DNA from: Patescibacteria group bacterium
GTDB lineage: Bacteria; Patescibacteriota; Minisyncoccia; Phycocordibacterales; UBA12079
DNA: 56,017 bases
Assembly: GCA_043800905.1 (NCBI GenBank)
Contig: JAZDMO010000013.1
Span: 1 to 56,017 of the forward strand
Direction of reading: 5' to 3'
How positions within the stretch are numbered: position 1 is the first letter of the stretch; each line of letters begins with the position of its first letter. The position numbers and the translations under genes are program-made. Positions 4,466-8,831 of the stretch are shown here, piece by piece. Below the pieces are notes generated by a model. The model did no database searches. It was not told the origin of the DNA and worked only from the letters and a program-made list of their open reading frames with translations.

Positions 4466-5392
4466 ATGTTAAAAAAATATACTTCTGGTAATATCACTTG
4501 GATTGATTTATTAAAGCCCACTCGTGAAGAAGTGCGTAATTTGATGATTCAATATAAACTTCACCCTTTGGTGGCCGAAGAACTACTTTTGCCTACTTTT
4601 AAACCTAAGGTAGATTTGCATAAAGATTTTATTTATCTTATTTTACACTTCCCTACTTTCAAAAGAAAAACGGACGGTGTTAATGAATGCATCAATCGAG
4701 AAGTTGATTTTATCATAGGCAAAGAATTTATAATTACTTCTCGTTATGATTCAGTAAGCCCTTTAGAACAATTTTCTAAAATTTTTGAAGTAGAAACTAT
4801 TTTAAATGCTGAGGGAAAGAGTGCTGATCATGCGGGTTATCTCTTTTATAGTTTGGCTCATAAATTATATGAATCTTTAGGGAATGAATTGGATTATATT
4901 GAAGATTTGCAAGAAAGAATAGAAGCTCAAATTTTTCAAGGTAAAGAAAAACAAATGGTGCGAGAAATTTCTTTAGTGGGTCATAATTTGCTTGATTTTA
5001 AACAATCTACAGGTCACCATAGAGAAGTTTTGGAATCTTTAGAGGTGGCAGGAGAAGATTTTTTTGGAAAAGATTTTGTCTATTATTTAAGAAATATTAA
5101 TGATAAATCTCGAAGAATTTCTCATGGAGTTAAGACTAGTCAAGAAAACTTAAAGGAATTAAGAGAAACCAATGATTCTCTTTTGACGACTAAACAAAAT
5201 GAATCTATGAAAATTTTTACTATTTTAGCTTTTGTCACCTTTCCTCTTTCATTGCTAGCATCTCTTTTTGGAATGAATACAATTCATACCCCAGTAGTGG
5301 GTTGGAACCAAGATTTTTGGTGGATTATTGCTGGAATGATATTATCAACCACTGTAATGTTTAGTTTTTTTAAATACAAAAAATGGTTTTAA
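4466..5392 (+). CDS. corA: CorA-family Mg2+/Co2+ transporter
   Basis: TWIDL at the N-terminus; FGMN signature between two C-terminal TM helices. Confidence 0.92.
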   Translation: MLKKYTSGNITWIDLLKPTREEVRNLMIQYKLHPLVAEELLLPTFKPKVDLHKDFIYLILHFPTFKRKTDGVNECINREVDFIIGKEFIITSRYDSVSPLEQFSKIFEVETILNAEGKSADHAGYLFYSLAHKLYESLGNELDYIEDLQERIEAQIFQGKEKQMVREISLVGHNLLDFKQSTGHHREVLESLEVAGEDFFGKDFVYYLRNINDKSRRISHGVKTSQENLKELRETNDSLLTTKQNESMKIFTILAFVTFPLSLLASLFGMNTIHTPVVGWNQDFWWIIAGMILSTTVMFSFFKYKKWF

Positions 5393-6801
5393 AAATATAC
5401 AATACATTAGGACGAGAAAAACAAGAATTCAAACCGCTTAAGGATGGGCAGGTTTCTTTTTATTATTGTGGGCCGACTGTTTACAAAGAACAACATATTG
5501 GAAATTTAAGAGGAAATTTAATGGCTGACTTGATTCGTCGTTCGTTAGGTTACCTTGGTTATGAAGTAAATTTTGTTTCTAATTATACTGATGTGGGACA
5601 TTTGACTTCTGATGCCGATGGAGGAGAAGACAAAGTAAGTAAGCAGGCTAAATTAGAACAAAAAACTCCTGAAGAAATCATAAGTAAGGCAATAGAAATC
5701 TATGAACAAGATTCGACTGAATTAAACATTCTTCCTCCAACTTTGCGTTGTCGGGCAACTGATTATATTTCAGAAATGATTGATATGATTCGGGTTTTGA
5801 CGGATAAGGGGTTTACCTACAAAACAGATTTAGCTATCTATTTTGATATTTCTAAGGCGAATAATTATACCCAATTGTCAGGTCAAAATTTAGATGAATT
5901 AAGATCAGGTGCTGGAACCGGAGATATTGAAGATCCTAACAAAAAGAATCCGAGTGATTTTGCTGTTTGGTTTTTTAAGGTAGGAGAACACGAAAATACT
6001 TTGCAAACATGGGATTCACCTTGGGGTGAAGGTTTCCCTGGGTGGCATATAGAATGTTCAGCAATGGCGAAGAAAAACTTAGGAGATACTATTGATATTC
6101 ATATGGGAGGAATTGAACATGTCCCAACTCATCACACGAATGAAATTGCTCAAAGTGAATCAGCTAATGAGGTTAAATTTACAAACTATTGGATGCACAA
6201 CGAGCATCTTGGAATGGACGGAACTAAGATGAGTAAATCCTTAGGAAATGTTGTTTTAGTTAAAGATGTTAAAGAAAAAGGCTTCAATCCTTTAGCTTTG
6301 AGATACTTTTTTTTACAAGCGCATTATCGATCAAAACAAAATTTTACTTGGGAAGCCTTAGAATCTGCTCAAAAAGGATATAAGAATTTACTTAATTCCC
6401 TATCTAGCTTGGGTGAAAATGTTGGAAAAATTTCAGAAGATTTTAAGACTCAATTGAAAGAAAGATTAGGTGACGATTTTAATATCCCCCAAGCTTTAGC
6501 TTTAGTGTCAGAAGTTTTAAAATCAGATTTATCTAATGAGGATAAATTAGCCACGATTTTAGATTTTGATAAAGTTCTAGGATTAGATTTGAAAAAGAAT
6601 TCATTGTCTCTGCAAGGCACGAAGCAGTTCAGTCTAAACATCGAAGAATTACCTCAAGAAATTCAAGATTTAATTTCACAAAGAAATCAAGCACGAGAAA
6701 ATAAAGATTGGGCTGAGTCTGATAGGTTAAGAGATGAAATAGAAGAGAAAGGTTACGAAATAAAAGATACAAACGAAGGAATTAGGGTTATTAAAAAATA
6801 A
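5383..6801 (+). CDS. cysS: cysteine--tRNA ligase
   Basis: CGPTVY, HIGN, PGWHIECSAM, KMSKS motifs. Confidence 0.98.
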   Translation: MVLKIYNTLGREKQEFKPLKDGQVSFYYCGPTVYKEQHIGNLRGNLMADLIRRSLGYLGYEVNFVSNYTDVGHLTSDADGGEDKVSKQAKLEQKTPEEIISKAIEIYEQDSTELNILPPTLRCRATDYISEMIDMIRVLTDKGFTYKTDLAIYFDISKANNYTQLSGQNLDELRSGAGTGDIEDPNKKNPSDFAVWFFKVGEHENTLQTWDSPWGEGFPGWHIECSAMAKKNLGDTIDIHMGGIEHVPTHHTNEIAQSESANEVKFTNYWMHNEHLGMDGTKMSKSLGNVVLVKDVKEKGFNPLALRYFFLQAHYRSKQNFTWEALESAQKGYKNLLNSLSSLGENVGKISEDFKTQLKERLGDDFNIPQALALVSEVLKSDLSNEDKLATILDFDKVLGLDLKKNSLSLQGTKQFSLNIEELPQEIQDLISQRNQARENKDWAESDRLRDEIEEKGYEIKDTNEGIRVIKK

Positions 6802-6852
6802 CCTTAATTCTTTCGAATTATAAATTCTAGATTGTAAGTTTTAAATTAAATT

Positions 6853-6889
6853 AATAATAGGCGACCGCAGAGTGGTCGCCTTTTTTATT
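6853..6889 (+). terminator. intrinsic terminator of corA-cysS
   Basis: AGGCGACCGC-AGA-GTGGTCGCCT followed by a T-run. Confidence 0.8.
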
Positions 6890-6896
6890 GTAAGAA

Positions 6897-7093
6897 AATA
6901 AAAGATCGCCGAAGGGAAAATAAAGTTCCCCCCGGCGATCGACCATTTCAAGTTAGAAACTTGAGTAGTATGGCCTGAGATTCTTTAGGACTAAGAAAGA
7001 GTCTCCGCAGGATTAACGAAATCAAAACTTCTTCGTTGTCGTGGTGTAAATAACGACTAGCCCATAGATCTAAAACATGATCAACCTACGTAT
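6897..7093 (-). ncRNA. candidate structured ncRNA, copy 1
   Basis: TTGACT at 7122-7127 (minus), multi-stem core and terminator hairpin 6904-6940; homologous to copy 2 with covarying helices; no ORF. Confidence 0.65.
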
Positions 7094-7128
7094 TTAAATA
7101 TATACCTTTTTTAGAATAAATAGTCAAT

Positions 7129-7307
7129 AAAAAACCCCTGCCATAATAAACAGCAGGGGGTGGGGTTTACAGGGTCAAGATTAAATCCCCCGAAAAATTA
7201 GCGAGATAAACCCGCTGTCGTAGTGGGGCAAAACCCCGACGGAATAAAATTCCGACAAACGACTGACCCAGAGATTTTCTGCAAATGCAGATAATCCACT
7301 TTCGTAT
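7129..7307 (-). ncRNA. candidate structured ncRNA, copy 2
   Basis: TTGACT(7336-7341)-17-TAGTAT promoter, same core as copy 1, terminator CCCCTGC...GCAGGGG-T6. Confidence 0.7.
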
Positions 7308-7427
7308 TTTTTATACTAACAACTTTAACACAAAAAGTCAATTAATTAACTTAAATCAAGAATTAGTCCACACTCTATCCCCTGTTAGAAATAATTTACA
7401 AATTTCTATTTATGTTAAAATAATCCT

Positions 7428-8831
7428 ATGCAAATTATTACAGACGATATCATTACCGGAAATGGATTGAGAATTCCTCCACAAAATATTGATTCTGAAA
7501 AAGCTCTGCTTGGTTCTATTATGCTTCGTCCTGAGGTTGCCTATGATATTTTAGATATTATTTCTTCAGAATGTTTTTATTCAGAAAGACATCGCATTAT
7601 TTTTAATGCCATGATGGATTTGTTCGGCAAAAAAGAACCTATCGACTTGTTGACTCTTTCAACAAAACTAAAAGAAAATAAACAATTAGATCAAGTGGGA
7701 GGAAATATTTTTTTGACAGAATTGGTAAATATAGTCCCCTCTTCTGCGAATGCTGAACATTATGCCAAAATTGTGCATAAAAAGTATATGATGCGTCGTT
7801 TGATTAAAGCCTCGGAAGAAATTTCAGATTTGGGTTATGGAGAATCAGAAAGTTTAGAACATTCTTTAGACAAAGCGGAAAAAAGTATTTTTGAAGTGAC
7901 TAGTTCTTTAGTTTCAAAATCTTACGTTAAAATGAAAGATATTTTGGGTGAAGCTTGGGAGCGTTTAAATAAGTTGCAAGAATCAGATGGAAAACTTCGA
8001 GGAGTACCAACTGGTTTTAAAGAATTGGATGCTAAACTTTCTGGTTTTCAAAATTCAGATTTAATTATTTTAGCCGCTCGTCCTTCTATGGGAAAAACTT
8101 CTTTAGCTTTGGATATTGCTCGTAAAGTAGCTGTGGATCATCAAAAAACTGTGGCGATTTTTTCTCTGGAAATGAGCTCTCAACAATTAGTAGATAGAAT
8201 GTTAGCGGCTGATTCTAATGTAGATGCTTGGAAATTAAGAACGGGTCGTTTGAATAAAGAAGAAGAATTTTCTTTAATTAGACAATCTTTGGATAATTTA
8301 TCAAAAGCTCCTATTTTTATTGATGATCACGCAGCTAATAACATTTTAAATATGCGTTCCGTGGCCCGTAAGTTAAAAAGACAACATGGTTTGGCTTTGA
8401 TAATAGTTGATTATTTGCAGTTAATGGCCCCAACTCAAACCCAAAAATCAGATTCAATGGTGCAACAGGTGACGGAAATATCCCGTTCTCTTAAACAGTT
8501 GGCTCGTGAATTAGATGTTCCTGTGCTTGCTCTTTCTCAACTGTCTCGTGCTGTGGAAAGCCGCGGAGGTCGTCCTCGCTTATCAGATTTGAGAGATTCA
8601 GGTTCCATTGAACAGGATGCTGATTTAGTAATGTTTATTCATCGAGAAAACAATGAGGATGGTTCGGGTAAATCAAATTTCACAGAAATCTTAATTGAAA
8701 AACATCGAAATGGGCCAACTGGAAAAGTTGATTTGAATTTCAATGATAAGAAGGCAACTTTTCAAAGTATTGATACAGCTGATTTTGATGATTTTGATCT
8801 TCCTTCCGAAGAGGAGGAAGATAATTTTTAA
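7428..8831 (+). CDS. dnaB: replicative DNA helicase
   Basis: PPQNIDSE, AARPSMGKT, IVDYLQLM, SDLRDSGSIEQDAD. Confidence 0.98.
   Translation: MQIITDDIITGNGLRIPPQNIDSEKALLGSIMLRPEVAYDILDIISSECFYSERHRIIFNAMMDLFGKKEPIDLLTLSTKLKENKQLDQVGGNIFLTELVNIVPSSANAEHYAKIVHKKYMMRRLIKASEEISDLGYGESESLEHSLDKAEKSIFEVTSSLVSKSYVKMKDILGEAWERLNKLQESDGKLRGVPTGFKELDAKLSGFQNSDLIILAARPSMGKTSLALDIARKVAVDHQKTVAIFSLEMSSQQLVDRMLAADSNVDAWKLRTGRLNKEEEFSLIRQSLDNLSKAPIFIDDHAANNILNMRSVARKLKRQHGLALIIVDYLQLMAPTQTQKSDSMVQQVTEISRSLKQLARELDVPVLALSQLSRAVESRGGRPRLSDLRDSGSIEQDADLVMFIHRENNEDGSGKSNFTEILIEKHRNGPTGKVDLNFNDKKATFQSIDTADFDDFDLPSEEEEDNF

What the first reader, a model, noticed from the sequence alone, without database searches (positions are those of the whole stretch)
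6897..7341. Tandem pair of homologous, pseudoknotted, stand-alone ncRNA candidates between cysS and dnaB
Seen: two minus-strand units. Each has TTGACT at exactly the same distance from a shared 5' AUACG, a multi-stem core and its own intrinsic terminator, and neither has an ORF. Shared order, copy 1 / copy 2: leader CGUAGG / CGAAAG; hairpin GAUC..GAUC / GAUU..AAUC; closing helix UAUGGGCU..AGGCCAUA / GGGUC..GACCC; invariant A-GUCGU..ACGAC helix (short loop in copy 1, two extra hairpins in copy 2); AACGA..UCGUU / AGCGG..UCGCU; then AAU-CCUGCG-G / AAU-UUUUCG-G; GAGA..UCUC / GGGA..UCUU. The leader pairs with the junction strand in both copies (CGUAGG:CCUGCG and CGAAAG:UUUUCG), giving a pseudoknot kept by compensatory changes while loops diverge in sequence and length. 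Knowledge: I see none of the hallmark motifs of RNase P, tmRNA, SRP, 6S, hammerhead or SAM-I. The P1/P2 crossing recalls HDV-like ribozymes, but L3/P1.1 and the catalytic J4/2 C are missing. Inference: a possibly undescribed structured RNA class (ribozyme, protein scaffold or guide with swappable loops).
Basis: partly seen in the sequence, partly recalled or inferred. Interest (0 to 1): 0.88.

Follow-up and report, generated by a model that had tools for sequence, protein, structure and literature searches.

The report
Orphan pair of structured small RNAs
Between the cysS and dnaB genes of a tiny-genome bacterium lie two related small RNA genes that keep the same folded shape but match no known RNA family, and no relative was found in any other genome searched, so their function remains open.

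Summary
The 626-nt cysS/dnaB spacer carries two minus-strand units, each with TTGACT placed 34 nt before a shared AUACG, a multi-stem core and its own intrinsic terminator. No credible ORF is present.

The units are homologous mainly through structure. A covariance model of copy 1 finds copy 2 at 31.0 bits, against 17.7 for the best chance hit. A sequence-only model gives 11.4 against 11.0. All 22 nested pairs are kept in both copies, five through changes on both sides.

Rfam 15 gives nothing.

Against a new RNA class:
- No homologue turned up in 18 family, 150 order, 400 class or 150 phylum genomes, in the syntenic spacers of relatives, or in pattern scans of three large collections.
- The copy 1 core folds no better than shuffled sequence (z -0.17).
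- The pseudoknot has only weak statistical support.
- Expression could not be tested.

Verdict: probably a genuine, lineage-restricted pair of paralogous structured sRNA genes of unknown function. The ribozyme and guide readings are unsupported. Interest is moderate.

The parts
7313..7341 (-). Promoter-like site of copy 2: -35 TTGACT (7341-7336), 17-nt spacer, TG-extended -10 TAGTAT (7318-7313)
   Evidence: Listed by the consensus scan; read. The same geometry with ATACG occurs only twice in the genome.
7169..7307 (-). Copy 2 core (139 nt). P1 is 7304-7299 with 7196-7191. P2 is 7296-7293 with 7276-7273, and its loop holds an extra hairpin. J2/3 is 7272-7264. P3 is 7263-7259 with 7221-7217, and its loop holds two extra hairpins. 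P4 is 7216-7211 with 7205-7200. AAU is 7199-7197. The 3' strand of the long-range helix is 7176-7172.
   Evidence: R1 match of 31.0 bits, E 1.3e-6; alignment A4; pair counts; positions; fold z -3.53.
7129..7159 (-). Intrinsic terminator of copy 2: 10-bp stem at 7159-7135, followed by a U run that overlaps the -35 of copy 1
   Evidence: Terminator scan; fold.
7099..7127 (-). Promoter-like site of copy 1: -35 TTGACT (7127-7122), 17-nt spacer, TATATA (7104-7099)
   Evidence: Read; regex. The scan does not list it, because position 6 of the -10 is not T.
6969..7093 (-). Copy 1 core (125 nt). P1 is 7090-7085 with 7011-7006. P2 is 7082-7079 with 7070-7067. J2/3 is 7066-7058. P3 is 7057-7053 with 7042-7038. 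P4 is 7037-7031 with 7021-7015. AAU is 7014-7012. The P5 hairpin is 7005-6977. The 3' strand of the long-range helix is 6976-6969.
   Evidence: The full-length MFE contains P1-P5. The proposed nested structure scores -24.7 against an MFE of -24.9 kcal/mol. The core alone gives z -0.17.
6897..6968 (-). 3' part of copy 1: an extra hairpin (about 6966-6944), then an intrinsic terminator (15-bp stem at 6940-6904) with a U run
   Evidence: Terminator scan; fold.
6859..6881 (+). cysS terminator: a palindromic stem, U run on the + strand only. It bounds the RNA locus and is not part of the units.
   Evidence: Terminator scan.

Best explanation
These are two paralogous, independently transcribed small RNA genes of about 180 nt (7307 to about 7128) and about 197 nt (7093 to about 6897), read on the strand opposite to cysS and dnaB. 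Each unit starts at a sigma-70-type promoter and ends at its own intrinsic terminator.

Each RNA folds into a four-way junction. Helix P1 closes hairpins P2, P3 and P4. The junction strand J2/3 is probably also able to pair with the 3' tail, either as a pseudoknot or as an alternative to P1. The paralogues share the helices and a few junction nucleotides: U after P1, UGGG..A before P3, A between P3 and P4, and UAAU before the P1 3' strand. The hairpin loops have diverged freely.

Inferred mechanism, not shown: a compact fold that presents conserved junction nucleotides to a protein or a small ligand, as a sequestering, scaffold or sensor RNA. It is less likely to be a base-pairing antisense regulator, because the longest invariant unpaired run is only 4-5 nt.

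The family looks restricted to this lineage and sits in a spacer whose content varies between related genomes.
For: Shown:
- Promoter geometry is identical in both units and unique in the genome.
- There are two strong minus-strand terminators; the region has 5 terminator-like sites against 0.5 +/- 0.7 expected.
- The spacer GC is 0.365-0.42 over 6900-7399, against a genome mean of 0.317 and 0.15-0.23 in neighbouring spacers.
- The structure model finds copy 2 at 31.0 bits (E 1.3e-6 over 56 kb, filters off), with the next hit at 17.7 bits. The sequence-only model gives 11.4 bits against 11.0 for the best chance hit, so pairing adds about 20 bits.
- 43 of 43 cells are paired, with 5 double and 2 single compensatory changes in P1, P2 and P4. 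Slid controls give 37-51% paired.
- The G-U and U-G pairs in P1 and P4 fit the minus strand only.
- There is no credible ORF and no Pfam hit.
- No protein-level or DNA-level relation links these units to the spacer contents of relatives.

Inferred: the binding function, from the fold type and from the absence of a conserved single-stranded seed in A4.
Against: - No homologue was found: BLAST in 40 relatives; R2 in 0 of 18 family and 0 of 150 order genomes, with only 2 weak, unconvincing hits among 150 phylum genomes; patterns in 0 of 400 class genomes; chance-level pattern hits in GTDB, JGI and IMG/VR contigs; syntenic spacers at best 10.3 bits. Conservation therefore rests on a single duplication.
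- The copy 1 core folds no better than shuffles (z -0.17; 85 of 200 shuffles fold at least as well). The + strand z-scores are as good or better (-1.84 and -4.45). The strong z-scores of the full transcripts (-4.88 and -4.23) probably come largely from the terminators and inserted hairpins.
- The alignment used for pair counting was fitted to the structure, which biases the counts. With 2 sequences the shuffle control cannot fall below about 1 in 32 (observed 15 of 500).
- There is no transcript evidence.
Confidence: 0.5

Rival explanations
1. Functionless relic. The spacer is a variable insertion hot spot, and the two units are a decaying duplicated insert, for example the remains of a mobile or foreign element. 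On this reading the hairpins, promoter-like words and terminators no longer serve any role.
For: The cysS-dnaB adjacency is kept in 12 of 19 relatives' loci, yet the spacer runs from about 75 nt to more than 1 kb with unrelated contents. The units are absent from all 5 same-genus genomes searched. The copy 1 core has no thermodynamic excess.
Against: After a divergence that leaves sequence-only similarity at chance level (11.4 against 11.0 bits), all 22 nested pairs, both promoters at identical spacing and both terminators are intact. Neutral decay would be expected to break some of them. There are no other copies in the genome and no phage or plasmid similarity.
Confidence: 0.2
2. Riboswitch-like sensors. 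Each unit would be an aptamer followed by a terminator, and ligand-dependent read-through would extend transcription antisense into the 3' end of cysS.
For: The architecture is a compact junction followed by a terminator. Transcription converges on cysS. In copy 2 the strand ACAGCGGG (the end of P3 plus the P4 5' strand) is complementary to the 5' half of the terminator stem, as read, which could act as an antiterminator.
Against: No Rfam riboswitch class matches. Each unit has its own promoter and no downstream ORF. In copy 1 no comparable antiterminator is seen, only a 5-bp match read. A second stem-loop at 6881-6859 lies between copy 1 and cysS.
Confidence: 0.08
3. Self-cleaving or other small ribozyme with an HDV-like crossing of two long-range helices.
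For: The strand order P1 5', PK 5', hairpins, P1 3', hairpin, PK 3' resembles the HDV fold.
Against: No HDV-type or other ribozyme family appears among the 28 Rfam matches at E up to 10. There is no spacer for P1.1 and no C between P5 and the PK 3' strand. Two extra hairpins sit where HDV has none. The pseudoknot is only weakly supported.
Confidence: 0.05
4. Very divergent copy of a universal RNA (SRP RNA, 6S, RNase P, tmRNA or tRNA-like), or a DNA-level element of a replication origin next to the DnaA boxes.
For: No SRP RNA or 6S RNA was detected anywhere in the genome. DnaA-box-like words lie about 20 nt upstream of copy 2's -35.
Against: RNase P RNA and tmRNA are found elsewhere, on C11 and C21. 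ARAGORN finds nothing here. A universal RNA would be present in same-genus genomes, yet 0 of 5 have a match. The genome also lacks SRP54-type GTPases and the RNA-binding M domain, so no SRP RNA is expected. The fold is branched, not the rod of 6S or SRP RNA. GC skew shows no turning point at 7 kb. The G-U pairs argue for RNA.
Confidence: 0.04

Closest known systems
HDV-like self-cleaving ribozymes (Rfam HDV-type families; features recalled)
   Same: The order of strands gives two crossing long-range helices, with hairpins between and after them.
   Different: No P1.1 or L3 arrangement and no J4/2 cytosine. There is an extra hairpin before and an extra hairpin after the inner helix. No covariance-model match at E up to 10.
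Orphan stand-alone structured ncRNAs with their own promoter and terminator, such as the raiA motif RNA and other candidates found by GC-rich intergenic-region searches in AT-rich genomes (recalled, not read here)
   Same: A GC-enriched spacer in an AT-rich genome, a multi-stem pseudoknot-capable fold, no ORF and unknown function.
   Different: Those families are defined by many homologues with statistically supported covariation. Here only two paralogues exist in one genome, and no Rfam match was found.
Tandem or paralogous bacterial sRNA genes (for example Qrr, OmrA/B, 6S-1/6S-2; recalled)
   Same: Adjacent duplicated sRNA genes, each with its own promoter and terminator.
   Different: Those keep a conserved single-stranded seed, or a rod-like 6S shape. 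Here the conserved parts are helices and junction nucleotides, and the longest invariant unpaired run is 4-5 nt.
Four-way-junction riboswitch aptamers with a pseudoknot, such as SAM-I (recalled)
   Same: P1 closes three hairpins, and a further long-range pairing is possible.
   Different: There is no SAM-I hit or hit to any other riboswitch family. The pairing partners differ: J2/3 with the 3' tail here, a loop with a junction there. There is no regulated downstream gene.

Membership tests
Any Rfam 15 family | Covariance-model score at or above the family's gathering score | tested here: not met
   In the window, 7 tRNA matches were found elsewhere and none in 6802-7427. In E-value mode on 6780-7450, 28 matches had E up to 10, all below gathering. 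The best was isrD at 24.5 bits (gathering 37), on the + strand terminator.
HDV-like ribozyme | Nested double pseudoknot with P1.1 formed from L3 and J1/4 | tested here: not met
   P5 follows the P1 3' strand with 0 nt between them in both copies (read; positions).
HDV-like ribozyme | Catalytic cytosine in J4/2, just before the P2 3' strand | tested here: not met
   Between P5 and the 3' strand of the long-range helix there are 0-1 nt and no C.
Bacterial SRP RNA | Match to RF00169 or RF01854 (domain IV hairpin), with the partner protein Ffh present | tested here: not met
   No match in the genome at E up to 1. No SRP_SPB or SRP54 domain. No DT[AS]GR word in the six frames.
6S RNA | Rod-like fold with a central bubble; match to RF00013 | tested here: not met
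   No RF00013 match in the genome. The predicted folds are multi-branched.
tRNA / tmRNA / RNase P RNA | Detection by ARAGORN or by the Rfam models at this place | tested here: not met
   ARAGORN finds 0 genes in 6700-7500. tmRNA is on C21 and RNase P RNA on C11.
Riboswitch (cis-regulatory) | Aptamer upstream of a regulated ORF on the same strand | tested here: not met
   Downstream on the minus strand lies only the 3' end of the convergent cysS gene. There is no ORF with a Pfam match.
Stand-alone bacterial sRNA gene | Own promoter and own intrinsic terminator, with no ORF | tested here: met
   These are consensus matches only.
Stand-alone bacterial sRNA gene | A discrete transcript of the predicted size and strand | not testable with these tools
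   No sequencing run was listed for this stretch.
Conserved structured RNA class | Homologues in several lineages with covariation beyond phylogenetic expectation | tested here: not met
   No homologue was found outside this genome. The covariation comes from two paralogues only.

The most novel reading that the evidence does not exclude
The two units are the first sampled members of an undescribed class of pseudoknotted four-way-junction RNA, either a ligand sensor or a small ribozyme. In this reading P1 and the J2/3-tail helix form together, and the family's other members lie in unsampled Patescibacteria or their mobile elements.
Probability: 0.15. Interest if true: 0.7.

Novelty: new member of a known kind. 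Interest (0 to 1): 0.36.

Why it matters
Ultra-small Patescibacteria genomes (this one is about 0.65 Mb) keep little non-coding DNA. Two well-signalled, structure-conserving RNA genes in one spacer therefore suggest a maintained function.

If they are expressed, they would be among the few stand-alone regulatory or structural RNAs proposed for this phylum, and a candidate new fold.

As it stands, the pair is an orphan. Without homologues or transcripts it cannot yet define a class. Its main value is as a concrete target for transcriptomics and for covariance searches of deeper metagenomes.

Tried and rejected
- Known families: Rfam gathering and E-value modes, ARAGORN, and whole-genome placement of RNase P RNA, tmRNA, SRP RNA and 6S. 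None explains the units.
- Sequence homologues: BLAST in the own genome and in 40 relatives gave only short AT-rich matches of at most 63 nt, the strongest of them to the promoter stretch. Phage and plasmid collections gave no match.
- Structure homologues: R2 found 0 of 18 in the family, 0 of 150 in the order and 2 weak hits among 150 in the phylum (19.1 and 18.9 bits; one lacks P3, the other covers only P3-P4). R1 on the family gave 2 hits at 15.6 and 11.9 bits. That call also missed copy 2 in G000, so the tool's first look loses true matches near 31 bits and these negatives are not proof of absence.
- Syntenic search: R2 with filters off over 14 loci (43,053 bases) gave at best 10.3 bits, E 0.52.
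- Patterns:
  - Genome contigs gave 2 hits and metagenome contigs gave 4; none matched R2 at the pattern site.
  - Viral contigs gave 39 and 2 hits, with 0 matching R2.
  - The class sample gave 0 of 400.
  - The family sample gave 1 hit in G013, with an equal control hit and no R2 match.
- Pseudogene idea: tblastn of 274 ORFs from relatives' spacers against this spacer gave a best E of 0.011 over 24 aa. Rejected.
- Origin-of-replication idea: there is no skew turning point.
- MAFFT alignments A1 and A5 were not in structural register and were not used for pair counts.
- Expression: the look-up of sequencing runs listed no run and no RNA holder.
- Literature: three full-text searches (listings and abstract starts only, no paper read) showed nothing describing such an RNA in Patescibacteria. 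Supplements were not seen.

Full report
**Setting.** The window's 626-nt spacer (6802-7427) lies between cysS (5383-6801, +; tRNA-synt_1e, E 5.8e-97) and dnaB (7428-8831, +; DnaB_C, E 6.7e-101). The genome (G000) has 646,679 bases in 22 contigs, GC 0.317 and 96.85% completeness.

**Observation.**
- Read on the minus strand, TTGACT lies at 7341-7336 and again at 7127-7122. In both cases it is 34 nt before an AUACG (7307 and 7093).
- A regex for this geometry finds only these two places in the genome.
- The consensus scan lists TTGACT-17-TAGTAT, with TG, for the upstream unit. It does not list the downstream unit, whose -10 reads TATATA.
- The scan finds two strong minus-strand terminators, at 7159-7135 and 6940-6904, plus the cysS terminator at 6859-6881. 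That makes 5 terminator-like sites, against 0.5 +/- 0.7 in shuffles.
- The U run of the first terminator runs into the -35 of the second unit.
- ORFs of 20 aa or more are 23-61 aa long, mostly start with TTG, and include one that begins inside the -35 hexamer. The four tested have no Pfam match.
- GC is 0.365-0.42 across 6900-7399. Nearby spacers have 0.15-0.23.

**Are the two units related, and is the relation structural?**
It finds copy 2 at 31.0 bits (E 1.3e-6); the next hit scores 17.7 bits.
- A sequence-only model of the same copy (R3) gives copy 2 only 11.4 bits (E 0.012), level with the best chance hit at 11.0 bits. Pairing therefore contributes about 20 bits, and primary sequence alone is at chance level.
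- On the model-fitted alignment A4, all 43 cells of 22 pairs are standard pairs. Five pairs changed on both sides (two in P1, one in P2, two in P4) and two changed on one side. P3 (GUCGU/ACGAC) is invariant. Sliding the partners by 1-3 columns gives 37-51% pairing and 0-2 double changes.
- Two caveats apply. The alignment was fitted to the structure. With two sequences, the shuffle control bottoms out near 1 in 32 (observed 15 of 500).
- The U-G and G-U pairs in P1 and P4 favour the minus strand.

**Thermodynamics are less kind.**
- The full transcripts fold well (z -4.88 and -4.23).
- The 125-nt core of copy 1 alone has z -0.17 (85 of 200 shuffles fold as well). Copy 2's core has z -3.53, helped by its inserted hairpins.
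- The + strands score -1.84 and -4.45. Folding energy therefore proves neither the core nor the strand.

**The second long-range helix.**
- J2/3 (UAUGGGCU in copy 1, UCUGGGUC in copy 2) can pair with the tail that follows the P5 region (AGGCCAUA in copy 1, GACCCUGU in copy 2).
- Read in register, positions 7 and 8 and position 2 covary. Copy 1 has a G-G mismatch and copy 2 has two U-U mismatches.
- Duplex energies are -7.1 and -8.3 kcal/mol.
- When the cores are folded alone, the MFE of both copies uses this helix rather than P1. In copy 1 the P1-containing nested structure is only 0.2 kcal/mol worse, at -24.7 against -24.9.
- Equally stable duplexes arise in 318 of 2000 (copy 1) and 93 of 2000 (copy 2) shuffles of the tail.
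- Each 3' strand has a rival local partner.
- The pseudoknot, or a P1/PK alternation, is therefore plausible but not established.

**Known families.**
- Rfam 15 at gathering thresholds reports only 7 tRNAs elsewhere in the window.
- In E-value mode, all 28 matches in 6780-7450 are below gathering and mostly sit on terminators.
- ARAGORN finds nothing.
- RNase P RNA (C11, 61.2 bits, below the 100-bit cut-off) and tmRNA (C21, 89.2 bits) are elsewhere.
- SRP RNA and 6S RNA are not detected anywhere in the genome. The units cannot be SRP RNA: the genome lacks Ffh and FtsY domains altogether, and same-genus genomes lack the units.
- The HDV-like hallmarks (P1.1, J4/2 C) are absent, as read from the sequence.

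**Homologues.** None was found.
- BLAST in 40 relatives gives only short AT-rich matches, the strongest of them to the promoter stretch.
- R2, built from both copies, finds 0 of 18 family genomes and 0 of 150 order genomes.
- Among 150 phylum genomes R2 gives 2 weak hits (19.1 and 18.9 bits; per-genome E 0.065 and 0.08). Their alignments lack P3 or cover only P3-P4.
- Exact-pattern scans of the conserved blocks give 2 (GTDB contigs), 4 (JGI metagenomes), and 39 and 2 (IMG/VR) hits. None matches R2 at the pattern site.
- Further patterns find 0 of 400 class genomes, and one control-level hit among 18 family genomes.
- Phage and plasmid collections give no match.
- The genome-search tool's first look missed copy 2 when queried with R1. 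Weak homologues could therefore escape, and these results mean 'not found in those searched'.

**Synteny.**
- dnaB was located in 20 relatives.
- cysS lies within 1.5 kb upstream of dnaB in 12 of 19 loci.
- The spacer varies from about 75 nt to more than 1 kb. It holds unrelated contents: small ORFs, other hairpin-rich stretches, or almost nothing, as in same-genus G003 with 207 nt.
- R2 with filters off over 14 of these loci peaks at 10.3 bits.
- The units thus occupy a variable spacer and are a lineage-specific gain, or were lost elsewhere.

**Interpretation.**
- The best reading (about 0.5) is a genuine pair of paralogous structured sRNA genes. Their conserved features are helices and junction nucleotides rather than a single-stranded seed, which points to protein or ligand binding. 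That step is inferred.
- Rivals are a functionless relic of an insertion (0.2), a terminator-coupled sensor giving antisense read-through into cysS (0.08), an HDV-topology ribozyme (0.05), and a divergent universal RNA or origin element (0.04).

**Not done or closed.** No sequencing run was listed, so expression is untested. Paper searches were seen as listings only.

Noticed in passing
whole genome G000 and relatives (no window coordinates): No trace of the SRP pathway. G000 shows no small or large SRP RNA, no SRP_SPB M domain, no SRP54-type GTPase domain, hence neither Ffh nor FtsY, and no DT[AS]GR word in any frame. RF00169 is found in 0 of 21 genomes, and PF00448 has no match in 29 of 31 genomes of the order sample; the 2 matches are short P-loop pieces. 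Controls ring in 12-14 of 14 genomes. One literature search (listing only) showed no paper stating this.
   Followed up: partly
window about 7364-7381 (minus-strand reading), just upstream of dnaB: Two tandem DnaA-box-like words (GGGGATAGA and GTGTGGAC) lie between copy 2's promoter and dnaB. Similar paired words (GGGGATAGA..GTGGATAA) sit at the same place in most of the relatives' dnaB upstream regions that were printed. GC skew gives no sign of an origin here.
   Followed up: partly
L034 (G008), L035 (G010), L038 (G012): spacer upstream of dnaB, strand opposite to dnaB: Genus g4 carries a different unit of about 330 nt at the same spot, with a TTGACA promoter-like word and, in L034 and L035, a terminator (L038's stretch ends before its 3' end). 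L034 and L035 share invariant 27-nt and 20-nt blocks; L038 shares a 17-nt block with L035. It has no Rfam match at gathering or at E up to 0.001, and no counterpart beyond short matches of 24-59 nt (E 0.001-0.006) in G000. It is a second unclassified ncRNA candidate.
   Followed up: partly
L036 (G006): spacer upstream of dnaB: Another unit of about 290 nt on the opposite strand, with a TTGACA promoter-like word and a terminator. It is unrelated by blastn to the g4 unit and to G000's units.
   Followed up: no
L033 (G003, same genus): 207-nt cysS-dnaB spacer: The short spacer contains AAAATACGAAA, identical to the 11 bases around the start of copy 2. This may be chance in AT-rich DNA, or a remnant of a lost unit.
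   Followed up: no
G000:C11:5054-5507 (-): The genome's RNase P RNA is 454 nt long and scores only 61.2 bits against RF00010 (cut-off 100), so annotation at gathering thresholds would miss it.
   Followed up: no
window 6859-6881: A palindromic GC-rich stem after cysS was called as a terminator on both strands, but only the + strand has a proper U run.
   Followed up: no
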